A stretch of 64,000 nucleotides of DNA from a virus. This document shows, in pieces, positions 8,667-44,318 of the stretch. Location: the IMG/VR virus record IMGVR_UViG_3300045988_137804, positions 1 to 64,000 of that record. One strand, 5' to 3'. Position 1 is the first letter of the stretch, and the number at the start of each line of letters is the position of its first letter. The notes under the pieces were generated by a model, which had not been told where the DNA came from, searched no databases, and worked only from the letters and a program-made list of their open reading frames with translations. A program made the translations under genes and the position numbers.

Positions 8667-9311
8667 ATGAGTACAATTGAGAAAATGAGTGTTCACAAAG
8701 CATTAGCAGAGTTAAAGATTATTGATTCCAGAATTGAGAGATCAATTGATGATGCACAGTTCTGTGTAGCAAACAAACATTCTAATGAAAAGATTAATGG
8801 TATTCCGGTTGAGGACGCTAAGAAGTTAATGGTTGGAAGTTACGACAAAGCATCAGATCTTATTAAGAGAAGAAATGCAATCAAGAGAGCAGTTGTGCTT
8901 TCTAATGCTAAGACAATTGTTACGATTGCAGACAGAGAATATACTGTTGCAGAAGCAATTGAGATGAAAAATCATGGCATTGAGTTTGAGGAATTTCTTT
9001 TAAATGAAATGAGATGTCAATACGCAGATGCTAATAGAACTATCTCAGCAGAGAATGGCGAAAAACTGAGTGAAAGAGCAGATAAATTTGTCATTGACAT
9101 GTATGGATCAAAAGAGGGTAAAACAAATACTGCTGATTTTGAGAAAGCAAAGAAAGATTTTATCACAGCAAATTCTTATGACTTGGTTGATCCACTTGAT
9201 ATCAAGAAGAAGATTGATGAATTGGAAGAATATATCTCAAACTTCAAGACAGAAGTAGATGCTGCATTAAGTGTTAGCAATGCTATTACAGAAACTACTG
9301 TAGAGTATTAG
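8667..9311 (+). CDS. hypothetical protein
   Basis: ORF with an AAAGGAGAA ribosome-binding site. Confidence 0.5.
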   Translation: MSTIEKMSVHKALAELKIIDSRIERSIDDAQFCVANKHSNEKINGIPVEDAKKLMVGSYDKASDLIKRRNAIKRAVVLSNAKTIVTIADREYTVAEAIEMKNHGIEFEEFLLNEMRCQYADANRTISAENGEKLSERADKFVIDMYGSKEGKTNTADFEKAKKDFITANSYDLVDPLDIKKKIDELEEYISNFKTEVDAALSVSNAITETTVEY

Positions 9312-9504
9312 AGAATATATAAATAGGAAATTATTTCACTGTTTGCTGAAAACTTAGAACTACAATCATTCAGACTTTTGCAAGTATAGCCTGAATCAAA
9401 ATAATAAAGAAGCTTGCAACATAATAAAACATAAAAAGCAAGTATAGCAAATTATTACAGGAATGCTTGATGCACAGTGTTGAGCGTTTATAAATTACAA
9501 GATG

Positions 9505-9605
9505 ACTGTAAAGAGTAAAGTTCAAATGTCAAGTAGTAAAGCTCAAAATTCAAAGATTATTTTTTATGTAAAGTTTAAGCAGTAAATAGTAAAGATATAA
9601 AGTTT
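9505..9605. repeat. Iteron-like cluster of about 6 (A/T)GTAAAG repeats and TTCAAA repeats in a non-coding region upstream of the tRNA cluster
   Basis: Seen: tgtaaagagtaaagttcaaatgtcaagtagtaaagctcaaaattcaaag…tgtaaagtttaagcagtaaatagtaaagatataaag. Confidence 0.5.
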
Positions 9606-9744
9606 TATAAAATCTTCGACAAACAGTTTTCAGTATGATTGTACTTGGCTGTAAGTTGTCTGCGAAGCTAGTAAATGGTGAATTAATTAATAAATGTCAA
9701 CCTACATAATAATATGCATAGTTGTCGTGAGGGTTGGCAAATAT

Positions 9745-9833
9745 GGATCATTACATCAACTGGTAAGATGAGCTGCCTCATAAGCAGAAAGCCCTAATAA
9801 GGTATAAACTGGGTTCGACTCCCAGATGATCCA
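9745..9833 (+). tRNA. tRNA-like gene with class-II architecture (about 20-nt variable arm) and anticodon CAU. Identity is atypical or unknown.
   Basis: Hand fold: acceptor ggatcat/atgatcc; D-stem catc/gatg; anticodon stem gctgc/gcaga with loop ctCATaa; T-arm ctggg-ttcgact-cccag; discriminator A. Confidence 0.5.
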
Positions 9834-9969
9834 CTGTATCTGAATATTCACAGAATGTGTTATTCGTTTCCTTTCTTTCTATGAACATTCTAGTTCAGAT
9901 ACAATGTTTTTCATAACTTCCTTTTGTTTGGTTGGCAACTTACCATATAGACAAAAAAGTTGCAATAAT

Positions 9970-10038
9970 GGGCTGTGGTGTAATGGTAGCACATAATACT
10001 TTGACTATTATAGATCCAGTTCAAATCTGGACAGCCTA
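9970..10038 (+). tRNA. tRNA-Gln (anticodon UUG)
   Basis: Hand fold: acceptor gggctgt/acagcct (G1·U72); anticodon stem taata/tatta with loop ctTTGac; T-arm ccag-ttcaaat-ctgg. Confidence 0.7.
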
Positions 10039-10124
10039 GCTTGTGAGATTTTGGAACGTCTCACAAATATTACTCCTTTCATGGGTTATTTATAGTGCAA
10101 AAGATGTGCAGAAATGCACATCGA

Positions 10125-10210
10125 GCTGGCATGGCGGAATTGGTAGACGCAATGGACTTAAAATCCATCGGTAAAAACACACCATACGAGTTCGAGTCTC
10201 GTTGCCAGTA
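10125..10210 (+). tRNA. tRNA-Leu (anticodon UAA), class II
   Basis: D-arm tggcggaattggtagacgc is identical to the bacterial tRNA-Leu consensus. Anticodon stem atgga/tccat with loop ctTAAaa. Long variable arm. T-arm acgag-ttcgagt-ctcgt. Acceptor gctggca/tgccagt. Confidence 0.8.
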
Positions 10211-10367
10211 TTAGCCATATGAGACACTTATTCCCTGAGCAAGAATGATGAAGTCGGTACAAAAGTGCTCAATTTCTGTATTTTACATTCGTGTGTTATG
10301 CAAGCAGCACGAATGACATATGGCATTAACCCCCAACATAGGGTATTTACATTTTACAAAAATGGTT

Positions 10368-10437
10368 TGGCTGTTAGTTCAGTGGGAAGAACATCTATTG
10401 CAAGAGAGGGTCACAGGTTCGAGTCCTGTACAGTCAA
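10368..10437 (+). tRNA. tRNA-like element, probably degenerate. Acceptor, D-arm and T-arm are canonical but no regular anticodon arm can be drawn.
   Basis: Acceptor tggctgt/acagtca; D-arm gttc-agtgggaa-gaac; T-arm acagg-ttcgagt-cctgt. The middle segment contains the self-complementary TTGCAA. Confidence 0.35.
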
Positions 10438-10505
10438 CTTGACGCAGAAAACATTTGATTTTTGCATTCATGTTTTGCACGCCTCATTTCTTCAATGTGC
10501 AAAGT

Positions 10506-10627
10506 AGATTGTTAGTTCATTGGTAGAATATCTTATTGAAAAATAATGTAATCCTGTTCTTTTCGCTTTCTTAACGATGTGATGCATTATTAATAGGAAG
10601 AAACACGTTCGAATCGTGTGCAATCTA
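10506..10627 (+). other. Split or interrupted tRNA-like structure. Acceptor/D-arm at 10506..10530 and T-arm/acceptor at 10603..10627, separated by about 70 nt. A cttatt/aatagg stem encloses a 54-nt insertion.
   Basis: Hand pairing of agattgt with gcaatct. T-arm acacg-ttcgaat-cgtgt. Confidence 0.3.
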
Positions 10628-32385: not shown

Positions 32386-35300
32386 ATGGTAAGAGTTATT
32401 AAAAGAGATTGCTCTGAAGTTGATTTTGATAAGAATAAAATTTCAACGGCAATCTTAAAGGCTATGAAAAATGGTAGCGGAATTGTTAAACCCAAAATTG
32501 CGGAATCTATTGCAGATGAGATTGAAAAGGAATGTAAGGATCGAGAAGAGATTGATATTTCTGAAATTGAAGCAATGGTATTTGACAAGCTGATTACCAA
32601 AAAACAGAGACTTACTGCAAGAGCATATGAAGGTTATAGAAGTACAAGAGAATTCCAGAGAGAGAATGAGAATACTGTTGACGAGGAAATTCTTGGAATT
32701 GTAGAAGCAAACAACGAAGAATGGAAAGATGAAAATGCGAATAAAAATCCAGCATTAAACCCTACAATTCGTGATTATATTGCTGGATCTGTAAGTAAAG
32801 ACGCAACAAAAAGATTTTTATTATCTCCAGAAATTATTCAGAGTCATTTAGAAGGAATTATTCATTTCCATGATTCAGATTACTTTATTCAACATATGCA
32901 TAACTGCGGATTAGTAAATCTTGAAGATATGCTTCAGAATGGTACTGTTATTAGTGAAACAATGATTGAAAAGCCACATAGTTTTTCTACAGCATGTACC
33001 GTGACTACTCAGATCATTGCTCAAGTTGCATCTAGTCAGTATGGTGGACAGAGTATCTCACTTGCACATCTGGCACCGTTTGTGGATGTTTCCAGAGAGA
33101 AGATCCGTAAGGAAGTGATCAGCGAGCAGGAACTGGTCGGAATGGAATATCCGGAAGATGTGCTCAATGAGATCGTAGAGAGAAGACTGAAAAAAGAGAT
33201 TACAAAAGGTGTTCAAACAATTCAGTACCAGTTAATCACACTTATGACAACAAATGGGCAAGCACCGTTCATCACAATTTTTATGTATCTGAATGAAGCA
33301 AAGAATGAGAGAGAAAAGAAAGACCTAGCGATGTTAATTGAAGAAATGTTACTTCAGAGAAAACTTGGTGTGAAAAATGAAGATGGTGTTTATATTGCAC
33401 CAGCATTTCCAAAACTCATTTATGTTCTTGAGGATGACAATTGTAACGAATCAACAGAATATTGGTATTTAACAGAACTTGCTGCCGAATGCACGTCAAA
33501 AAGATTAGTTCCAGATTACATCTCTGAAAAAGTAATGAAAGAACTTAAAGGTGATGTGTATACATGCATGGGATGTGTTGATGGAAAAGAACTTGTTACA
33601 TATACATATAACAATAATCTTTACGTTGAATCATTTGAAAGAATGTGGAATAGACTTTCTGATAGATTTGAAATAAAACATCAGTATAATGACAACAACC
33701 CAAATCTATATATGGATTTGAGCGATGTAGAAATCTATGACACAGACAAAGGATTTGTTAATACAGAGAGAATAATCAGAAATATATCAACCTCTTGGCT
33801 TGATGTTAATTTTTCCAACGGAAGAAGATTACTTTGTACAGAAGATCACCCACTTACATTAAGAGATGGAAGAACAATCCATGCATCTGAATTAAAATTA
33901 AAGGATAGAATTCTCATTAATTCACATCAGTATAATGAAGAAAATATTGTATTCAATGAAGACAAGGCGTGGTTGTTAGGTTTTATGCTTTGTGATGGAT
34001 GTTATCAAGGCTCTTTATTTTCTTCAATTGCAGCAGAAAATGAAGATGAAATTGCAGATAAGTTTTCAGAAACAATGAAGAAATATTTTGATCTCGATAT
34101 TGAAAAAAAATTACAGCAAAGAGGTAAGAAAGGAACATATTACGATTTGATTGCACATAGTCAGAATGAAAAAATATCTGTGTATTGTAATTATTTCGCT
34201 AAAAAATTCGAAGGTCTGAATAAGATTGATAGACATGTTCCTAATGAAGTATTTTCATGGAATTATTCGTCAAAACTTGCTTTCCTGGCAGGAATGATTG
34301 ATGCAGATGGGTACATTAATAGTTCTCAGAATAAAGGATTTTCTATAGTTCAAATTGGTTCTACAAACAAAGAACTTGCATTACAACAAATGGCACTTGC
34401 ACAGTCTTTAGGTATGCCAGCAAAGCTGTACCATAACCATTACAGTAAACGTAACCCAGAATTGATTAGATACAGAGTTGAGTTTTATCCAACAGATGAA
34501 CTAATTAATTATATTGTATGTAAAAAGAAATATGATAATTATATTGATTCAAATGTATCTAGTTATAATCATGAATCTGAAGTTACTGAAATCAACAAAA
34601 TTAATAAAAAAATGTTTTCTTACGATGTAACAACAACAAGTGAGCATTTTGAAATTAGCGGAATCTATAGTCATAATTGTAGGTCTTTTTTAACTGTTGA
34701 TAGATTTTCTGATAAAGTTGGAAACATTTCTAACGCTAAAAACTTTAATGGAAAACATAAATATTACGGAAGATTTAATCAGGGTGTTGTTACAATTAAT
34801 CTTCCAGATATTGCATTTTCATCTGATGGCGACATGGATAAGTTTTGGGGAATTTTCGAAGAAAGAACAGAATTATGCCATAAGGCTTTAAAGGCTAGAC
34901 ATAACCGTTTGCTTAAAACTTCTTCTGATATTGCACCAATCCTGTGGCAGAACGGAGCATATGCAAGACTTAAAAAACATGAACCAATTGACAAACTTTT
35001 ATTTGATGGATATTCAACGATTTCTCTTGGATATGCAGGACTTTATGAGTGTGTGAAATATATGACAGGAAAATCCCATACAGATGGTGATGTAGGAGAA
35101 AAGTTTGGATTGGAAGTAATGCAAGCATTAAATGATAAATGTAATCAGTGGAAAGAAGCTGAAAACATTGATTATAGTTTGTATGGCAGCCCAATCGAAA
35201 GCACTACGTATAAATTTGCAAAGTGCTTAAAAAATAGATTCGGTGATGATATTTTTATTAAACTTGATGGATTTGATAGAAATTATATTACAAATAGTTA

Positions 35301-35730
35301 TCACGTTCCTGTGTTTGAAAGAATTACAGCATTTGACAAATTTAAAATTGAATCAAAATTCCAAAACCTTAGTCCAGGAGGCGCAATTTCGTATTGTGAA
35401 ATCCCATCAATTAACGTAAATATTCCAGCATTATTGGAAGTAATTAAATTTATTTATGACAATATTATGTACGCAGAAATCAATACAAAAGATTGTTATT
35501 GCGAAGTGTGTGGATACGATGGAGACATTCCACTTATTGACGATGATAACGGTAAACTTGTATGGGAATGCCCTAATTGTGGCAACACAGATAATACAAA
35601 AATGGACATCGCATTTAGAGTTTGTGGTTATGTTGGTACTGCAAAAAATGGTGGAAACCAAGGAAGATATGGAGATATCCACGATAGAGTTTACCACATC
35701 GATGACTTTGAATACGAGGAAAATGAATAA
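32386..35730 (+). CDS. nrdD: Anaerobic ribonucleoside-triphosphate reductase (class III) carrying an in-frame intein
   Basis: ATP-cone N-terminus. C-terminal Zn ribbon CEVCGYDG...CPNCGN and glycyl-radical motif RVCGYVG. Intein at 33574..34677. Confidence 0.85.
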   Translation: MVRVIKRDCSEVDFDKNKISTAILKAMKNGSGIVKPKIAESIADEIEKECKDREEIDISEIEAMVFDKLITKKQRLTARAYEGYRSTREFQRENENTVDEEILGIVEANNEEWKDENANKNPALNPTIRDYIAGSVSKDATKRFLLSPEIIQSHLEGIIHFHDSDYFIQHMHNCGLVNLEDMLQNGTVISETMIEKPHSFSTACTVTTQIIAQVASSQYGGQSISLAHLAPFVDVSREKIRKEVISEQELVGMEYPEDVLNEIVERRLKKEITKGVQTIQYQLITLMTTNGQAPFITIFMYLNEAKNEREKKDLAMLIEEMLLQRKLGVKNEDGVYIAPAFPKLIYVLEDDNCNESTEYWYLTELAAECTSKRLVPDYISEKVMKELKGDVYTCMGCVDGKELVTYTYNNNLYVESFERMWNRLSDRFEIKHQYNDNNPNLYMDLSDVEIYDTDKGFVNTERIIRNISTSWLDVNFSNGRRLLCTEDHPLTLRDGRTIHASELKLKDRILINSHQYNEENIVFNEDKAWLLGFMLCDGCYQGSLFSSIAAENEDEIADKFSETMKKYFDLDIEKKLQQRGKKGTYYDLIAHSQNEKISVYCNYFAKKFEGLNKIDRHVPNEVFSWNYSSKLAFLAGMIDADGYINSSQNKGFSIVQIGSTNKELALQQMALAQSLGMPAKLYHNHYSKRNPELIRYRVEFYPTDELINYIVCKKKYDNYIDSNVSSYNHESEVTEINKINKKMFSYDVTTTSEHFEISGIYSHNCRSFLTVDRFSDKVGNISNAKNFNGKHKYYGRFNQGVVTINLPDIAFSSDGDMDKFWGIFEERTELCHKALKARHNRLLKTSSDIAPILWQNGAYARLKKHEPIDKLLFDGYSTISLGYAGLYECVKYMTGKSHTDGDVGEKFGLEVMQALNDKCNQWKEAENIDYSLYGSPIESTTYKFAKCLKNRFGDDIFIKLDGFDRNYITNSYHVPVFERITAFDKFKIESKFQNLSPGGAISYCEIPSINVNIPALLEVIKFIYDNIMYAEINTKDCYCEVCGYDGDIPLIDDDNGKLVWECPNCGNTDNTKMDIAFRVCGYVGTAKNGGNQGRYGDIHDRVYHIDDFEYEENE
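33574..34677 (+). mobile_element. Intein of 368 aa with a LAGLIDADG homing-endonuclease domain, inserted in NrdD between ...YTCMG and CRSFL
   Basis: Starts with Cys (CVDGKEL) and ends ...SHN followed by Cys. LAGLIDADG motifs LLGFMLCDG and LAGMIDADG. Confidence 0.8.
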
Positions 35731-36275
35731 TGAAATATAACTCAATTAGATACATGGACATCAGTAATGGAGAGGGCGTTGGAGTCGCCCTTTTCGTACA
35801 AGGCTGCAATTTCCATTGTCCTTCTTGTTTTAACCAAGATACTTGGGACTTCAATGGTGGCAAAGAATGGACAGAAAAAACTAAAGAAACATTTCTTAAA
35901 TTAGCAGATAAACCATACATAAAAAGAGTTTCATTTCTTGGTGGAGAATGTTTAGCAAATGAAAATCTTGAAGGAGTTTATGATGTTATCAAAGATGTAA
36001 ACGAATTATTTCCTGATAAAAAGATATGGATGTATACAGGCTATACTTGGGAATCTATTTTTAATCCAATTGTGACTGACAATCTTGATCTGGAAAGAGA
36101 TAGACTTATTGAACTCAGAAAAATGATTGTTAAAATGACAGATGTTCTTATTGATGGACAATATATTCATGAACAAAGAGATATGAATTTAAAATTCCGT
36201 GGCAGCAAAAATCAGTGTGTTATTGATACAAAAAAATCTCTTGATCAGGGCAAAATAGTTCTATATCTTGATTAA
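35730..36275 (+). CDS. nrdG: Anaerobic ribonucleotide reductase activating protein (radical SAM)
   Basis: QGCNFHCPSC cluster. ATGA overlap with nrdD. Confidence 0.8.
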   Translation: MKYNSIRYMDISNGEGVGVALFVQGCNFHCPSCFNQDTWDFNGGKEWTEKTKETFLKLADKPYIKRVSFLGGECLANENLEGVYDVIKDVNELFPDKKIWMYTGYTWESIFNPIVTDNLDLERDRLIELRKMIVKMTDVLIDGQYIHEQRDMNLKFRGSKNQCVIDTKKSLDQGKIVLYLD

Positions 36276-39518: not shown

Positions 39519-39863
39519 ATGCAGAAAAAGAATTACAAAGGTCGCTGCGAGAAATTAACAGTGCCAAAATCTAAGGATGTCTGCCATATCTATAATGACA
39601 TCCAAAAGTCTTATCTATTACAACTTCAGGACGATCCAAACATCAAAGAGATAAAATGTAATGTCCTTATGCTTGGATTGGAACTTGGAGAATTCACATC
39701 TGATTTTCAGTGTGTTACAGCAGACAACAATCTAATAGTGCGTGAATGTATCTCACGAGATGCTATCGCCAAACCAATGACAGCAAAACGATTAGATGCT
39801 TCAAGAGAGTATTGGTTTCGTCATGGCATAACAGATTGGGGGATTGTAACCGATGAAAAATAA
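39519..39863 (+). CDS. tnsA: TnsA-like endonuclease (short form) of a Tn7-like element
   Basis: Position and overlap with tnsB. Restriction-endonuclease-like D...E.x motif region SDFQCVTADNNLIVRECIS. AGGAG ribosome-binding site. Assignment is tentative. Confidence 0.45.
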   Translation: MQKKNYKGRCEKLTVPKSKDVCHIYNDIQKSYLLQLQDDPNIKEIKCNVLMLGLELGEFTSDFQCVTADNNLIVRECISRDAIAKPMTAKRLDASREYWFRHGITDWGIVTDEK

Positions 39864-41661
39864 GAGTCTATTTTATAATCCAAAAACCAAAGAAATATTT
39901 CGTGTGTTAGACAGTAAAGGTTCAAAAGTTCTTATCATTAATTGCACAAAGAAACAGATGCCTTATTGGACAGAATTCGATTCAATTTCTTCCTGTCGTT
40001 TAATCACAGAAGATGAATTACAGGACATGACTGGCACACATTTTCAAGAACTAACTGTACCATCAAAAGAATACAGATATGTTCAAGAAAGGTTTTCACT
40101 GATTTCAAATATCATTCCTATCATCGGAAATAAAAGCAAGCGTACTCAGATGATACGAATCATATCTGAAACAAATAATTGCAGTAAACAAACAATCAAA
40201 AACATCTTGTGCCAGTATCTCATCTATCAAAATATTTCTGCATTAGCACCGCAAAAGAGCAATGAAAAAGAACTAACAACAGATGAGAAAAACATGCGTT
40301 GGGCATTAAATAAGTTCTTCTATACAAAGAATAAGAATTCATTATCAACCGCTTACGTCATGATGCTTAAAGAAAAATATACAGATGAATACAACAACTT
40401 ATTACCACACCCAACCATTCATCAGTTCCGTTATTTCTATCGCAAAACAAAAAAGATGGAAACGTATTATATCTCAAGAGATGGCATAAAAGATTACCAA
40501 AGAAATCACAGACCATTGCTAGGAGAAGGAATTAGAACAGTTGCAAATAGCATTGGAACAGCTATGTTGGATTATACAATCTGTGATATTTATCTCGTAA
40601 ACGATAAACAAGAATTAATTGGTCGTCCATTAATGACAGCTTGCATTGATGTCTACAGCGGATTGTGTTGTGGTTACTCATTAACATGGGAAGGTGGAAT
40701 GTACAGTTTGCGTTCTTTGATGTTAAATGTGGTCACTAATAAGAAAGAACATTGTAGAAAGTTTGGAATAAATATCGAAGAATCCGACTGGAATTGTCAT
40801 CAATTACCTGCAACATTAATCACAGATAAAGGTTCAGAATATGCGTCAGAAAACTTTGAACAACTTACAGATTTAGGAGTGTCTATTATAAATCTACCAG
40901 CCTATAGACCAGAGTTAAAAGGATCAGTTGAAAAGTTTTTTGATATGATTCAATCACTTTATAAGCCACAGTTACTAGGAAAAGGTGTCATAGAATCTGA
41001 TTTCCAGGAACGTGGCTCACATGATTATAGAAGAGATGCTTGTCTAACATTAGAACAATTTGAAAAAATAATTCTTCGTTGCATCATCTATTATAATACA
41101 CAGAGAATTATCAAAAATTCACCACTGATTGAACAAAATATTCCGCCACATTCTTGTGACATATGGAACTATTATTTGACCTATAATGATGACTTTTTGA
41201 TAAGAATATCGCCACAGAATCTACTTTTATGTTTGCTACCAAGAACGAAAGGAGTGTTTAAAAGAAATGGTTTAAACGTCAATAGTCTCCGCTATAAGCA
41301 TAAAACATACACCGAAATGTATCTTGTAGGAGGAGATGTAACAGTAGCCTACAATCCAGAAGATGTTTCTTACATTTGGCTCATTGAAGAAAATGGAACG
41401 TATGTAAAATTTGAATTAATCAATTCTCAGTTCTATGGAAAGGATTTATCATTTGTAGAAAAATATATGGAGTCATCTAAGAAGCTAATTGCAGAAAATA
41501 CCGATGATAATTTACGAGCAAAAGTTACGCTTTCAAAAGATATAGATTTTGTAATTTCTGAAAGTGTACGTTCTAATGTAAGCACAAAAAATATCCGCAA
41601 GAATCGTCAGAAAGAACAGGAACTTACTCATAGAGATTTCGTAAAGGAGTATGAATTATGA
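39853..41661 (+). mobile_element. tnsB: TnsB-like DDE (Mu/rve-type) transposase
   Basis: DDE core DYTICDIY...TACIDVYSG...ITDKGSEYAS. Size and gene order fit. Confidence 0.8.
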
Positions 41662-42917
41662 TTAATATGAATAAAGTAATCAAAGAACTTCCTGATATGC
41701 TGTCCGGAAATGAACTTCAGAAAGCAATGTCTATTATTCCAAAATACGACAAACAGATTCAGGAAGATGGAAGTATGACCGAAAGACTTTTGAAATTATC
41801 TGACCTTTATAGCATTTATATTCCATCACAAATGTCTACTGAAATTTATAGCAAACTATATCTTGGAATCATTCGTTCTATGCAGAAAAAAGGAAACAAG
41901 TTAACTGTACAACAATTCAATTCAACTTATAGAACGATGCAGAATATTAAGAATAAAACTGGCAATCAGCAATATGATGGAATCATAGGTGGATCAGATT
42001 CATTTACAATTATTGGTGCAAGTGGGATAGGAAAATCATCAGCTATTTCTCGTGCATTGAATCTGATTGAAGCAAATCATGTAATAGAAATTGAACAGCC
42101 TTACACTAAAATACTTCCATGCTTAACAGTGCAATGTCCATTCGATTCTTCTGTAAAAGGATTATTACTTGAAATTCTTCGCAAAGTTGATGAGCAGTTA
42201 GGAACAGATTATGCACAAACAAAAAGGTTCACGACTGATATGCTTATAGGTGCTGTTAGTCAGGTGTGTTTAAATCATATTGGCTTGCTTGTTGTAGACG
42301 AAATACAGAACGTAGTTAATTCAAAGAACGGCAAGAACTTAATCGGATCATTGACGCAGCTAATCAACAATTCAGGCATTAGCATCTGCATGGTTGGAAC
42401 ACCAGATAGTGAAATATTCTTTGAACAGGCTATGCAATTAGCTCGTAGAAGTGTCGGATTAAAATACACAGCTTTGCCATACGATGAACATTTTTGCGAA
42501 GTATGTGAATGCTTATTTTCTTACCAATATGTAAAAAATATCACATATATAAATAGCACGACTATAGAATGGTTGTATCAACACAGTGCAGGAGTTATCT
42601 CTATTGTTGTATCATTAATTCATGATGCACAAGAGATTGCAATCTTAAATGGGAGAGAAGTATTAGATATTAAATCGTTAGACGAAGCATACAACAATAG
42701 ACTTTCTATGTTGCACGATTATATTAGACCTACTATGAGAAAGAAATCTATCGGCAATAATAAAATAAAGAAACAAAATATCATTACAACTTTGTCGATA
42801 AAAAATAGCGCAGATATTCAAACAGATTTAATACAAAGTCTTGCGAAAGAATGTAAGAAAGATGGAACAGATATTGTAGAAATACTGAGTCAACATATTA
42901 CAATTGAGGTGATTTAA
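41658..42917 (+). CDS. tnsC: TnsC-like AAA+ ATPase
   Basis: Walker A IIGASGIGKSS and Walker B LLVVDEIQN. Confidence 0.75.
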   Translation: MINMNKVIKELPDMLSGNELQKAMSIIPKYDKQIQEDGSMTERLLKLSDLYSIYIPSQMSTEIYSKLYLGIIRSMQKKGNKLTVQQFNSTYRTMQNIKNKTGNQQYDGIIGGSDSFTIIGASGIGKSSAISRALNLIEANHVIEIEQPYTKILPCLTVQCPFDSSVKGLLLEILRKVDEQLGTDYAQTKRFTTDMLIGAVSQVCLNHIGLLVVDEIQNVVNSKNGKNLIGSLTQLINNSGISICMVGTPDSEIFFEQAMQLARRSVGLKYTALPYDEHFCEVCECLFSYQYVKNITYINSTTIEWLYQHSAGVISIVVSLIHDAQEIAILNGREVLDIKSLDEAYNNRLSMLHDYIRPTMRKKSIGNNKIKKQNIITTLSIKNSADIQTDLIQSLAKECKKDGTDIVEILSQHITIEVI

Positions 42918-44318
42918 ATGATTGGATTTATGCCTAAATTATATCCAGATGAATTAGTGTATAGTTGGATTGCTAGGTATCATGTAAGAACTGGACATTA
43001 TAGTTATCAGCAAACAGCAAAACATCTACTAGATAAGAAAGCAAATATTGTCTCGAAAAAGTTTTTAAACGAATACTCAAATGAATTTTTTAACATCATC
43101 AAAAAGAATATTCCAATAAAAGAGTTAGTAATAAATCATAGTATGCTGTCAGCTTATATTAAATTTTTGCCAAAAGATAAGCGCAATAATCTAATAGAAT
43201 CCTATGAAAACAATTTAAGATATAAAGAGTCATCAATTGGATTTAAGACAAGAAGTAATGGTATTAGTATGCGATATTGTCCTATATGTGTAAAGGAAGA
43301 TCGAGAAAAATATGGAGAAACTTACTGGCACAGAGAACATCAATTTGTTGGAATTAATGTATGCACAAAGCATAAATGTTATCTTATAGATTCCAAAATG
43401 TCTGTAAAAAGTATTGATAAGTCTGAGTTTTATACCGCAGAATATGTCATAGAACAACATGATGATGTTAAGATTTCCAATAATGAGTATGAGATAAAGT
43501 TTGCCAAGTATTTTACAGAAGTCATAAATACAGAGTCAAATAATGACTCAAATATTGTGGAATATCTCAATACTATATTATTGAACTCAAAGTATAGAGC
43601 AAATGGATGTATGCTAAAAGATTTTAATAAATTGTACGATGATTATTCTGAATTATGCGAAAAGATTAATGTAAATATAATTTCTTCACAACCATCGTTA
43701 AGAGAGATATTAAAAAATAAACGCAGAACATTGGATATTTGTATCCTTGGAATGCTATTGAATATTTCGCCTTACGATCTCGTGAATAGAGTATTGCCAA
43801 ATACAAACAAAGAGGATATCAGAGAGCAAGTCATATTTTTAAGAGATGTAAAAAAGATGAGTTATAATCGTATTGCAAAAGAATTAAACGCAAGTAGAAG
43901 AGCAGTTGGTACAATATATCATAGTAAAAAAACTGAAAATGATTTAGATGTTCTTAAACTTCTTAAAGATGAACTGCCAAAATTCTATAATGGAGATTTA
44001 ACTAATGGAAGACCGCAAAAAATAACAGTATACACAGTTGAAAAACAATTTGATATTCCACAAAAAGTATTAATAAATAATAAATCCTATTATAACGAAA
44101 TAATCAAGTATGAAGAGTCTTATCCTGAATATTGGGCGAGAGAATTAGTATGGTCTTATAATAAACTAAAGGAAGATAAAGCATATATAAGTCAAAATAA
44201 AATAACCAAACAAATAAATATTCGTAAGGAGCAACCTGTAAAAGCTATACCATACATCTCTAAATATACAGACAAAGAAACTGCTGAAGCTATTAAATCA
44301 TTATTGCAAAAATCGTAA
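42918..44318 (+). CDS. tniQ: TniQ/TnsD-family target-selection protein
   Basis: N-terminal TniQ motif LYPDELVYSWIARYH and zinc ribbon CPICVKE...CTKHKC. Confidence 0.75.
   Translation: MIGFMPKLYPDELVYSWIARYHVRTGHYSYQQTAKHLLDKKANIVSKKFLNEYSNEFFNIIKKNIPIKELVINHSMLSAYIKFLPKDKRNNLIESYENNLRYKESSIGFKTRSNGISMRYCPICVKEDREKYGETYWHREHQFVGINVCTKHKCYLIDSKMSVKSIDKSEFYTAEYVIEQHDDVKISNNEYEIKFAKYFTEVINTESNNDSNIVEYLNTILLNSKYRANGCMLKDFNKLYDDYSELCEKINVNIISSQPSLREILKNKRRTLDICILGMLLNISPYDLVNRVLPNTNKEDIREQVIFLRDVKKMSYNRIAKELNASRRAVGTIYHSKKTENDLDVLKLLKDELPKFYNGDLTNGRPQKITVYTVEKQFDIPQKVLINNKSYYNEIIKYEESYPEYWARELVWSYNKLKEDKAYISQNKITKQINIRKEQPVKAIPYISKYTDKETAEAIKSLLQKS

What the first reader, a model, noticed from the sequence alone, without database searches (positions are those of the whole stretch)
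9745..9833. tRNA with class-II architecture but a CAU anticodon
The hand fold gives a canonical acceptor, D-arm and T-arm (GGTTCGACTCC) and a clean anticodon loop cuCAUaa. Between the anticodon stem and the T-stem there are 20 nt, a long variable arm that in bacteria is restricted to Leu, Ser and Tyr tRNAs. The discriminator is A, as in Leu and Tyr. A Leu- or Ser-type body reading AUG would be a recoding or decoy tRNA. Alternatively this is an odd initiator/elongator Met or Ile2 (lysidine) tRNA. Phage tRNA clusters often hold such oddities.
Basis: seen in the sequence. Interest (0 to 1): 0.55.

Follow-up and report, generated by a model that had tools for sequence, protein, structure and literature searches.

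The report
Phage AUG/AUA-box tRNA with extra arm
This is a real, conserved gut-phage tRNA gene with a CAU anticodon and an extra hairpin shaped like a second anticodon arm, and it belongs to a previously undescribed phage family of tRNAs that otherwise read the isoleucine codon AUA.

Summary
Window 9745-9833(+) is a tRNA with anticodon CAU, a 20-nt variable region and discriminator A73 (ARAGORN; Rfam tRNA 51 bits against a threshold of 29).

The body is not Leu-, Ser- or Tyr-like. It has a 4-bp Watson-Crick D stem, a 7/5 acceptor/T arrangement and all universal tertiary bases. Outside the anticodon arm and extra arm it is closest to ordinary class I CAU tRNAs of related phages.

The extra arm is a 5-bp stem with a 7-nt loop (AAGCC-CUAAUAA-GGUAU), the size of an anticodon arm. 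The same arm, 18 of 20 nt invariant, sits in four other metagenomic phage tRNA lineages whose stems all differ by compensatory changes. Those four carry UAU. Similar arms with GAU-containing loops occur in further phage tRNA(UAU) lineages.

In matched samples of viral tRNAs, long arms occur in 6/111 UAU, 0/119 CAU and 0/97 UUU. No member was found in 185,579 bacterial species genomes or 50,697 deposited phage genomes.

The CAU gene is 98-100% identical in 7 contigs whose flanks have diverged to 53-60%.

My best reading is a working elongator tRNA derived from the AUA-decoding family, probably lysidinylated by host TilS to read AUA as Ile (about 0.5). The main rival is a plain elongator tRNA-Met (about 0.28). 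It is a new variant of a known kind.

The parts
9745..9833 (+). tRNA gene, anticodon CAU, 89 nt including discriminator A73; no encoded CCA
   Evidence: ARAGORN; Rfam RF00005 51 bits; own covariance model R1 109.6 bits; 98-100% identical in L145, L100, L102, L094, L096, L120
9745..9751 (+). acceptor stem 5' strand GGAUCAU, pairs with 9826-9832 AUGAUCC
   Evidence: 5 of 7 acceptor pairs show compensatory changes across the family
9754..9770 (+). D arm: stem CAUC/GAUG (4 Watson-Crick pairs, class I type), loop AACUGGUAA with G18 G19
9772..9788 (+). anticodon arm GCUGC-CUCAUAA-GCAGA; G27.A43 mismatch gives a 4-bp stem; anticodon CAU at 9779-9781; U33 and A37 A38 present
9789..9805 (+). extra (variable) arm hairpin AAGCC-CUAAUAA-GGUAU: 5-pair stem (A-U, A.A, G.U, C-G, C-G) and 7-nt loop, the dimensions of an anticodon arm
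   Evidence: 18 of 20 variable-region nt invariant in 5 lineages. A.A becomes A-U in L202, L247 and L005. All 5 pairs compensatory across 11 hairpins, 0/500 shuffles reach the covariation score
9806..9808 (+). AAA linker between the extra arm and the T stem
   Evidence: AAA/AAG/AAU/AA in relatives
9809..9825 (+). T arm CUGGG-UUCGACU-CCCAG
9969..10039 (+). neighbouring tRNA-Gln(UUG) of the same cluster
10125..10210 (+). neighbouring tRNA-Leu(UAA), a true class II tRNA used for comparison
10368..10437 (+). neighbouring tRNA-like gene with a shortened anticodon arm (6-nt loop)

Best explanation
This is a functional elongator tRNA encoded by an uncultured gut phage. The phage is likely 100-180 kb and its endolysin points to a Bacillota host.

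The tRNA has a normal class I core plus a sequence-conserved extra arm. The arm is a 5-bp, 7-nt-loop hairpin placed directly 3' of the real anticodon arm. This arm marks a phage-restricted family of tRNAs that otherwise carry UAU and so decode the isoleucine codon AUA.

The CAU member is an offshoot of that family. Its loops and the 4-7 part of its acceptor stem are closest to the UAU members L146 and L081.

The most likely mechanism runs as follows. The host transcribes and processes the gene, and the host enzyme adds CCA. Host TilS converts C34 to lysidine. IleRS then charges the tRNA and it reads AUA. With the neighbouring tRNA-Gln(UUG) and tRNA-Leu(UAA), it supplies decoders of A-ending codons to an AT-rich phage.

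Shown here: that it is a tRNA, its architecture, the family, the covariation, the association of the arm with UAU, and its restriction to phages. Inferred: expression, lysidine modification, isoleucine charging, and what the extra arm does. For the arm I favour a handle or identity aid tied to the Ile/AUA role, possibly descended from a duplicated tRNA-Ile anticodon arm.
For: It is a tRNA. All universal tertiary bases are present (U8, A14, G18G19, U33, G53 U54 U55 C56 A58 C61).

Selection: the tRNA is 98-100% identical in 7 contigs while the 150-nt flanks fall to 53-60%.

Family: the pattern AAGCCCUANNAAGGUAUAA finds tRNAs only in phage or metagenome contigs. One lineage carries CAU and four carry UAU: L033-36, L106 (three tandem copies), L081 and L146. 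None of the 35 hits in bacterial genomes is a tRNA. In the four canonical stems 14 of 24 pairs show compensatory changes, yet 18 of 20 arm positions are invariant.

Link of the arm to AUA decoders:
- In matched viral samples, long arms occur in 6/111 UAU, 0/119 CAU and 0/97 UUU tRNAs (Fisher p 0.0014).
- UAU arms are anticodon-arm-sized with 7-nt loops, five of them containing GAU: CAGAUAA, CAGAUUA twice, CUGAUUA, UAGAUAA. Other long-armed phage tRNAs have tetraloops.
- The hairpin is supported by covariation.

Prior for Ile2: 103 of 118 non-initiator viral CAU tRNAs are closer to E. coli ileX than to metT.

Context:
- Close relatives (96% identity in the adjacent protein) have tRNA(UAU) at the head of the same Gln-Leu cluster.
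- The partner tRNAs read CAA and UUA.
- The window uses AUA at 15.1, UUA at 24.9 and CAA at 13.5 per 1000 codons.
Against: - Pair 4:69 is U:A. The C4:G69 pair is a TilS determinant in E. coli and B. cenocepacia (PMC11947777) and an E. coli IleRS determinant, while U4:A69 is an E. coli MetRS determinant (PMC9976931).
- The nearest UAU relatives keep C4:G69 and C5:G68. More distant long-armed UAU tRNAs do not, so the rule is not general.
- L094 and L096 carry both a class I tRNA(UAU) and this CAU tRNA, so the two need not be redundant.
- With the arm trimmed, the body is equidistant from E. coli ileX (40 matches) and metT (41).
- No TilS-like PP-loop protein is encoded in the window, so modification would depend on the host.
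- No expression or modification data exist.
- tRNAscan-SE isotype models could not be run.
Confidence: 0.5

Rival explanations
1. It is a plain elongator tRNA-Met. C34 stays unmodified (or receives a Met-type modification), MetRS charges it through the CAU anticodon, and it reads AUG. The extra arm is then an inherited feature that is neutral or serves a general role such as stability, processing or protection.
For: - CAU together with A73 is the dominant MetRS identity set, and U4:A69 and G2:C71 match E. coli Met determinants (PMC9976931).
- C4:G69, required by the two TilS enzymes studied, is absent (PMC11947777).
- It coexists with a tRNA(UAU) in L094 and L096.
- A 4-bp anticodon stem is most frequent in bacterial elongator tRNA-Met, at 27.3% (PMC13092985).
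- ARAGORN labels it Met, by anticodon only.
Against: - The arm is otherwise found only on UAU tRNAs, and it stayed invariant while every stem diverged. That argues it works in this tRNA as it does in the AUA decoders.
- A5:U68 and C3:G70 of the E. coli Met set are absent.
- 103 of 118 non-initiator phage CAU tRNAs sampled are closer to E. coli ileX (Ile2) than to metT.
- AUG supply gives no obvious advantage to an AT-rich phage, whereas the partner tRNAs all serve A-ending codons.
Confidence: 0.28
2. It is a recoding or mistranslating tRNA. The long arm plus A73 lets an anticodon-blind class II synthetase (LeuRS, less likely SerRS) charge it, so AUG, or AUA for the UAU relatives, is read as Leu or Ser. 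This would resemble nematode nev-tRNAs and bacterial allo-tRNAs.
For: - A long extra arm, A73, A15, G18G19 and an A at 20a resemble parts of the E. coli Leu identity set (PMC9976931).
- UAU is also the commonest anticodon of allo-tRNAs (PMC5389517) and one of the two major anticodons (with CCC) of nev-tRNAs (PMC4300185), so long arms and this codon box have met before.
- Acceptor pairs G1-C72, G2-C71 and A3-U70 happen to match the E. coli tRNA-Ser acceptor pairs as I recall them from the tRNA-Ser identity literature (not tool-verified here).
Against: - The core is class I: a 4-bp D stem with C13-G22. The 15:48 combination is A.A here, not A15-U48.
- The arm has a 7-nt loop and 3 unpaired nt on its 3' side, unlike the tetraloop arms of real Leu, Ser and Tyr tRNAs in the same phages.
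- A73 rather than G73 argues against Ser.
- The body is closest to class I CAU tRNAs.
- The CAU anticodon would in any case attract MetRS.
Confidence: 0.08
3. It is a non-decoding tRNA-like RNA. It could act as a decoy or sponge for a host tRNA-targeting defence or a tRNA-binding factor, or as a regulatory RNA, with the conserved extra arm as the functional part.
For: - The arm is conserved in sequence more strongly than any stem.
- The same cluster and related phages hold several tRNA-like genes with shortened or odd anticodon loops that can hardly decode. Examples are window 10368-10437, and L005 5602-5686, which keeps the arm but has an anticodon arm 4 nt shorter.
- Allo-tRNA(UAU) species tested in E. 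coli were inactive in translation (PMC5389517).
Against: - The anticodon arm is fully canonical: 7-nt loop, U33, A37 A38.
- The anticodon is restricted to NAU in every intact member, as expected for decoders.
- All tertiary-interaction bases needed for the L-shape and for ribosome use are intact.
Confidence: 0.1
4. It is a pseudogene, or a chance or assembly artefact.
For: The whole-window Rfam gathering scan did not list it. There is one mismatch at the top of the anticodon stem.
Against: It scores 51 bits when searched locally. It is 98-100% conserved in 7 independent contigs with diverged flanks. The family shows compensatory evolution.
Confidence: 0.02

Closest known systems
Bacterial and phage tRNA-Ile2 (CAU anticodon, lysidine at position 34; E. 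coli ileX type)
   Same: CAU anticodon, loop CUCAUAA, A73, elongator-type acceptor with G1-C72, U12-A23, and a phage-borne supply of an AUA decoder. Most sampled phage CAU tRNAs are closer to ileX than to metT.
   Different: It has a 20-nt extra arm where 5 nt is normal. None of 119 matched class I-type phage CAU tRNAs has one. Pair 4:69 is U:A instead of C:G. The anticodon stem has 4 pairs. Lysidine modification is untested.
tRNA-Ile(UAU), a TilS-independent AUA decoder (Mycoplasma mobile, Bifidobacterium, B. subtilis suppressor strains; PMC3575796, PMC3919564, PMC8450103)
   Same: The family this tRNA belongs to carries UAU in four lineages with the identical arm, and in further lineages with related arms.
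   Different: Those cellular tRNAs are not among the class II (long-arm) types listed in the identity review I read (PMC9976931 names only Leu, Ser and bacterial Tyr), and my literature searches found no long-armed tRNA-Ile. The window member has C34, not U34.
Class II tRNAs (Leu, Ser, bacterial Tyr)
   Same: A stem-loop between the anticodon arm and the T arm. A73, as in Leu and Tyr.
   Different: The D stem has 4 Watson-Crick pairs, not 3. The arm loop is 7 nt, against mostly 3-6 nt with 4 the commonest in 278 phage Leu, Ser and Tyr tRNAs. The arm sequence is conserved. The anticodon lies outside the Leu, Ser and Tyr boxes.
allo-tRNAs (Mukai et al. 2017, PMC5389517)
   Same: A long extra arm on tRNAs with non-Ser anticodons. 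UAU is their commonest anticodon. Some occur in phages.
   Different: Allo-tRNAs are defined by 8/4 or 9/3 acceptor/T stems, a long D stem with a tetraloop, a longer anticodon stem and G73 or U73. Here the arrangement is 7/5, with U8 A9, a 9-nt D loop and A73.
Nematode nev-tRNAs (PMC3333845, PMC4300185)
   Same: Class II architecture with an Ile (UAU) or other non-Leu/Ser anticodon.
   Different: Nev-tRNAs are class II tRNAs that LeuRS charges with leucine in vitro, and they are conserved only among nematodes (PMC3333845, PMC4300185). Here the core is class I and the setting is a phage.

Membership tests
tRNA (Rfam RF00005) | Cloverleaf scoring above the curated gathering score (29 bits) | tested here: met
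   51.0 bits, E 7e-10, full model 1-71; ARAGORN agrees
tRNA (Rfam RF00005) | Universal tertiary bases U8, A14, G18 G19, U33, G53 U54 U55 C56, A58, C61 | tested here: met
   All read directly from the sequence
Class II tRNA of Leu/Ser/Tyr type | Long variable arm forming a stem-loop | tested here: met
   20 nt; hairpin supported by covariation
Class II tRNA of Leu/Ser/Tyr type | 3-bp D stem with a non-Watson-Crick 13:22 pair, and an enlarged D loop | tested here: not met
   CAUC/GAUG gives 4 Watson-Crick pairs, with C13-G22 invariant in the family. The window's tRNA-Leu shows the class II form
Class II tRNA of Leu/Ser/Tyr type | Isotype determinants: Ser G73; Tyr U35 (with A73); Leu A73 plus A15-U48 (PMC9976931) | tested here: not met
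   A73 excludes Ser and A35 excludes Tyr. For Leu, A73 and A15 are present but position 48 is A
allo-tRNA | 8/4 or 9/3 acceptor/T-stem configuration, long D stem with tetraloop, G73 or U73 (PMC5389517) | tested here: not met
   7-bp acceptor, 5-bp T stem, U8 A9 linker, 9-nt D loop, A73
Bacterial initiator tRNA-fMet | 1:72 mismatch and three consecutive G-C pairs at 29-41, 30-40 and 31-39 | tested here: not met
   G1-C72 is paired; 29:41 is U-A
tRNA-Ile2 (lysidine) | CAU anticodon with A37 A38 and A73 | tested here: met
   Loop CUCAUAA, A73
tRNA-Ile2 (lysidine) | Acceptor-stem determinants read by type I TilS (C4:G69 with 5:68 or 3:70; PMC11947777) | tested here: inconclusive
   4:69 is U:A and 5:68 is C:G. 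The rule is known for only two species. 6 of 46 phage CAU tRNAs of cluster c1 (closer to ileX than to metT in 39 of 46) also have U:A at 4:69
tRNA-Ile2 (lysidine) | C34 actually converted to lysidine, and charging by IleRS | not testable with these tools
   Needs mass spectrometry or enzyme assays
Elongator tRNA-Met | C34 A35 U36 and A73 (major MetRS determinants; PMC9976931) | tested here: met
Elongator tRNA-Met | E. coli minor determinants G2-C71, C3-G70, U4-A69, A5-U68 | tested here: inconclusive
   G2-C71 and U4-A69 are present. A3-U70 and C5-G68 differ
Phage long-arm tRNA(NAU) family (defined here) | Class I core, NAU anticodon, and arm AAGCC-N7-GGU(A/U)U followed by AAN | tested here: met
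   Window, L145, L100, L102, L094/96 and L120 (CAU). L033-36, L106, L081, L146, L202 and L247 (UAU). Model R1 scores 86-110 bits for the twelve members searched; L202 and L247 were found later and were not scored

The most novel reading that the evidence does not exclude
The extra arm is a functional module: a second hairpin shaped like an anticodon arm. In several lineages it displays the GAU triplet of the major tRNA-Ile. A dedicated partner would read it, for example IleRS, another host factor, or a phage protein. Phage AUA/AUG-box tRNAs would then be charged, modified or protected by rules different from those of the host. For the CAU member this could mean AUA reading without the usual TilS determinants, or non-cognate charging. 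That would make it a new functional class of tRNA rather than a decorated Ile2 or Met tRNA.
Probability: 0.2. Interest if true: 0.8.

Novelty: new variant of a known kind. Interest (0 to 1): 0.5.

Why it matters
Textbook rules restrict long variable arms in bacteria to Leu, Ser and Tyr tRNAs. This work shows a phage-restricted set of AUA/AUG-box tRNAs that break the rule in a consistent way. They have a class I core plus an anticodon-arm-sized hairpin, conserved in sequence in one family and statistically tied to the UAU anticodon.

AUA is the codon whose decoding depends most on special chemistry (lysidine) and on fine discrimination between IleRS and MetRS. An extra structural element on exactly these tRNAs could reveal a new way to set tRNA identity or to escape host control. 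It could also provide an orthogonal handle for engineering.

There is a practical point for annotation. Genes of this kind are called 'Met' by anticodon, or missed altogether: ARAGORN missed L081 and L005, and the Rfam gathering scan missed the window copy. Phage AUA-decoding capacity is therefore under-counted.

Tried and rejected
- **Leu/Ser/Tyr-type body:** rejected on the D stem, the discriminator, position 35 and nearest-neighbour comparison.
- **allo-tRNA (8/4 or 9/3) fold:** rejected. U8 A9, a 7/5 arrangement, a normal D arm and A73 are present (PMC5389517).
- **Initiator tRNA:** rejected (G1-C72; no GGG/CCC run).
- **The extra hairpin as the real anticodon arm:** rejected. Related arms have A at the U33-equivalent and U at the 37-equivalent position, and their 'anticodons' vary.
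- **Promoter or terminator hidden in the arm:** nothing above the shuffled expectation.
- **Alternative 3-bp, 4-nt-loop fold of the arm (the minimum-free-energy fold):** disfavoured. L005 breaks it while keeping GCC/GGU, and L202 and L247 extend the 7-nt-loop fold to 5 bp.
- **Excised intron-like insert:** bacteria and phages have no known mechanism for excising an insert at this position (from my general knowledge of bacterial tRNA introns, which are group I introns in the anticodon loop), and I did not scan the arm for splice-site motifs. Kept only as a remote idea.
- **Phage-encoded TilS in the window:** no SGGxDS PP-loop motif in 62 ORFs, and no tRNA enzyme among the 39 ORFs scanned with Pfam.
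- **Cultured relatives:** none in 50,697 phage records. The exact-match scan of IMG/VR with the window's own anticodon-arm sequence found nothing.
- **Literature:** searches for a described long-armed phage tRNA-Ile or tRNA-Met, and for Bacillota tRNA-Ile2 sequence strings, found nothing.
- **Deciding Ile2 against Met from E. coli references:** undecided, 40 against 41 matches. BLAST of L038 against E. coli genomes was uninformative.

Full report
**1.

ARAGORN reports tRNA(cat) at 9745-9834. The Rfam tRNA model gives 51.0 bits (threshold 29, E 7e-10) at 9745-9833 when the region is searched on its own. The whole-window scan with Rfam's fast filters had skipped it.

Read from the sequence, the gene has these parts:
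- acceptor GGAUCAU/AUGAUCC
- U8 A9
- D arm CAUC-AACUGGUAA-GAUG
- A26
- anticodon arm GCUGC-CUCAUAA-GCAGA, with a G27.A43 mismatch
- a 20-nt variable region, 9789-9808
- T arm CUGGG-UUCGACU-CCCAG
- discriminator A73

No CCA is encoded. Every universal tertiary base is present.

**2. Setting**

The window is phage DNA. The gene sits after a tail-fibre-family gene (PHROG 1491) and a RAGATH-27 RNA. It heads a cluster of tRNA-Gln(UUG), tRNA-Leu(UAA) and a tRNA-like gene with a shortened anticodon arm.

The window also encodes:
- DnaE, RecJ, a RecD-like helicase and an NAD-dependent ligase
- NrdD carrying an intein
- ThyX and FolD
- an endolysin with choline-binding repeats, which suggests a Bacillota host

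The standard genetic code gives 90% coding density. AUA is used at 15.1 per 1000 codons, AUG at 22.5, UUA at 24.9 and CAA at 13.5.

The nearest relatives are IMG/VR gut contigs of 100-177 kb. No deposited phage genome is close: DnaE reaches at most 39% identity, and the tRNA itself has no hit in 50,697 records.

**3. It is not a Leu- or Ser-type body**

- The D stem has four Watson-Crick pairs, and C13-G22 is invariant in the family. The window's own tRNA-Leu shows the class II form, with a 3-bp stem and G13.A22.
- A73 argues against Ser and A35 against Tyr.
- With the anticodon arm and the extra arm left out, the closest tRNAs among 147 unique phage tRNAs are class I CAU tRNAs. L038 even shares the acceptor stem. 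Leu and Ser tRNAs are far behind (see also the covariance-model ranking).
- The allo-tRNA definition (8/4 or 9/3, long D stem, G73 or U73; PMC5389517) is not met.
- The initiator definition is not met either.

**4. The extra arm defines a phage tRNA family**

L033-36 carry a 90-nt tRNA(UAU) whose variable region is almost identical to the window's, although all four stems differ.

I scanned for AAGCCCUANNAAGGUAUAA in three collections: IMG/VR, JGI/ENA metagenomes, and one genome for each of 185,579 bacterial and archaeal species. The tRNA hits fall into five lineages:
- the CAU lineage: window, L145, L100, L102, L094/L096 and L120, which is 7 contigs and 5 sequence variants
- L033-36, carrying UAU
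- L106, carrying UAU, with three tandem copies
- L081, carrying UAU, with a deviant T loop that ARAGORN misses
- L146, carrying UAU

None of the 35 bacterial-genome hits is a tRNA.

On the family alignment, 14 of 24 pairs in the canonical stems show compensatory changes and 95.8% of cells are paired. No shuffle reaches these values. Yet 18 of the 20 arm positions never change. The arm is therefore under stronger sequence constraint than the helices.

The CAU gene is 98-100% identical across its 7 contigs, while the 150-nt flanks drop to 53-60%.

**5. Shape of the arm**

Variants L202, L247 and L005 read GGUUU instead of GGUAU. This turns the A.A mismatch into A-U and gives a 5-bp stem, AAGCC/GGUUU, closed by a 7-nt loop. 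L005 also breaks the alternative 4-nt-loop fold.

More distant phage tRNA(UAU) genes have arms of the same dimensions, with different stems and very similar loops:

| Locus | Stem | Loop |
|---|---|---|
| L075 | CUA/UAG | CAGAUAA |
| L078 | GCGC/GCGU | CAGAUUA |
| L433 | UCUC/GAGA | CAGAUUA |
| L266 | CCGG/CCGG | CUGAUUA |
| L465 | CCGUC/GGCGG | UAGAUAA |

On the eleven 17-nt hairpins, all 5 pairs show compensatory changes, 85.5% of cells are paired, and 0 of 500 shuffles reach the covariation score. Two caveats apply. I cut the hairpins out by eye, and their homology is assumed.

The arm is thus the size of an anticodon arm, 5 bp plus 7 nt. In the window it starts directly after the real anticodon arm, and its loop CUAAUAA differs from the real loop CUCAUAA by one base. 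The GAU-loop group resembles the anticodon loop of tRNA-Ile(GAU). However, it has A at the U33-equivalent position or U at the 37-equivalent position, so these loops are not working anticodon loops.

An origin by tandem duplication of a tRNA-Ile anticodon arm is an attractive inference. It is not shown.

**6. The arm goes with UAU**

I took three matched samples of viral tRNAs sharing the D arm UAGCUCA..GGU.AGAG. They differ only in the anticodon loop.

| Anticodon | Well-folded unique tRNAs | With variable region of 16-24 nt |
|---|---|---|
| UAU | 111 | 6 |
| CAU | 119 | 0 |
| UUU | 97 | 0 |

Fisher's test gives p 0.0014.

A wider ARAGORN survey of the same 359 loci found 38 of 1467 unique class-I-isotype tRNAs at 82 nt or longer. 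These included 8 of 129 UAU and 1 of 198 CAU (L429).

The long-armed tRNAs with other anticodons (Asn, Cys, Trp, Lys, Gln and others) mostly have GNRA tetraloop arms. Several that I read by eye also have Leu/Ser/Tyr-like D arms. They are a different phenomenon.

**7. Which amino acid and codon?**

This cannot be settled by computation.

For Ile2, meaning lysidine modification and reading of AUA:
- The arm is otherwise exclusive to AUA decoders and stayed invariant in the CAU lineage.
- The loops of the CAU member (D loop, T loop, arm tail) and acceptor positions 5-7 match the UAU members L146 and L081.
- Close relatives have tRNA(UAU) at the head of the same cluster.
- The partner tRNAs serve A-ending codons.
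- Of 118 non-initiator phage CAU tRNAs, 103 are closer to E. coli ileX than to metT.

For Met:
- Pair 4:69 is U:A. C4:G69 is needed by the two TilS enzymes studied and by E. coli IleRS, while U4:A69 is an E. coli MetRS determinant (PMC11947777, PMC9976931).
- L094 and L096 carry both a class I tRNA(UAU) and the CAU tRNA.
- A 4-bp anticodon stem is commonest in elongator tRNA-Met (PMC13092985).

Two points weaken the 4:69 argument. Distant long-armed UAU tRNAs lack C4:G69. And 6 of 46 phage CAU tRNAs of cluster c1, which is closer to ileX than to metT in 39 of 46 cases, also have U:A at 4:69.

With the arm trimmed, the window tRNA is equidistant from ileX and metT, at 40 and 41 matches.

My estimates are:

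| Reading | Probability |
|---|---|
| Ile2 (lysidine, reads AUA) | about 0.5 |
| Elongator Met | about 0.28 |
| Non-decoding decoy | about 0.1 |
| Leu or Ser mischarging | about 0.08 |
| Artefact or pseudogene | about 0.02 |

**8. Comparison with what is known**

I found no description of long-armed phage tRNA-Ile or tRNA-Met.

The nearest concepts are these:
- tRNA-Ile2
- TilS-independent tRNA-Ile(UAU)
- allo-tRNAs, whose commonest anticodon is also UAU
- nematode nev-tRNA(UAU)

The first two are functional analogues. Membership of the last two fails on defining features.

**9. Verdict**

This is a genuine, selected phage tRNA with an unusual but recurrent architecture. It is a new variant of a known kind.

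Its fallback reading (odd Met or Ile2) is the supported one, and its headline reading (Leu/Ser body, recoding) is not.

Interest is moderate (0.5). The individual gene probably does ordinary work. The family-level finding is unexpected and testable: an anticodon-arm-like extra arm tied to AUA decoders and restricted to phages.

Noticed in passing
window 10368-10437 (+): A tRNA-like gene (Rfam tRNA 48 bits) with a normal acceptor, D arm and T arm, but only 19 nt where the anticodon arm plus variable loop should take 21-22. ARAGORN reports a 2-base 'anticodon' (gc) in a 6-nt loop. Homologues sit at the same place in L001, L002, L003 and L006. Related phages hold further odd-loop tRNA-likes, with 6-nt loops (ta, ag, tt, tc, aa) and 8-nt loops (catg, tttc).
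   Followed up: partly
window 9335-9418 (+): A RAGATH-27 RNA motif (RF03100, 80 bits, above its gathering score) lies between the tail-fibre-family gene and the tRNA cluster. A 70%-identical stretch that overlaps it (window ~9509-9688 of the 9200-10600 query) occurs in Dulem virus 39, from a lemur gut.
   Followed up: no
window 39853-44318 (+): A Tn7-like trio lies inside the phage genome, directly before the endolysin on the opposite strand. It comprises a protein with a Mu-transposase C-terminal domain (39853-41661), a TniB-type AAA+ protein (41658-42917) and a TniQ protein (42918-44318).
   Followed up: no
window 32386-35730 (+): The anaerobic ribonucleotide reductase NrdD is interrupted by an intein carrying a LAGLIDADG homing endonuclease. 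The activase (radical SAM) follows at 35730-36275.
   Followed up: no
L005 5602-5686 (+): A degenerate member of the long-arm family in a close relative of the window phage. The arm is kept (AAGCCAUAACAAGGUUUAAA), but the anticodon arm is 4 nt shorter (ACGAU-UAA-AUCGU) and the discriminator is G. ARAGORN misses it; model R1 gives 77.7 bits.
   Followed up: partly
L106 7213-7780 (-): Three tandem copies of the long-arm tRNA(UAU), about 240 nt apart, on one metagenomic contig. They differ by a single D-loop base.
   Followed up: no
L043 5040-5124; L051 2855-2939: 85-nt tRNAs with a Leu-like D arm and a tetraloop variable arm, but with the anticodons UUG (Gln) and AGC. These are true class II bodies with foreign anticodons, a different oddity from the one studied.
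   Followed up: no
L429 2302-2388 (+): An unrelated 87-nt phage tRNA(CAU) with a long arm (ACACU-CGCAA-GGUGU) and a C1.A72 mismatch like bacterial initiators. It was the only other long-armed CAU among 198 unique CAU tRNAs sampled.
   Followed up: no
viral loci L183-L541: About 2.6% (38 of 1467) of unique phage tRNAs with class-I-isotype anticodons are 82 nt or longer. Asn(GUU) accounts for 5 of 74 and Cys(GCA) for 3 of 38. Most have GNRA-tetraloop arms, and several that I read by eye have Ser/Tyr/Leu-like D arms, which suggests class II bodies with switched anticodons are fairly common in phages.
   Followed up: partly
L033-L036 3844-3915; L081 2162-2233: Relatives that carry the long-arm tRNA(UAU) also encode suppressor-type tRNAs, with anticodon UUA in L033-36 and CUA in L081. 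This hints at stop-codon recoding in those phages. The window itself reads well in the standard code.
   Followed up: no
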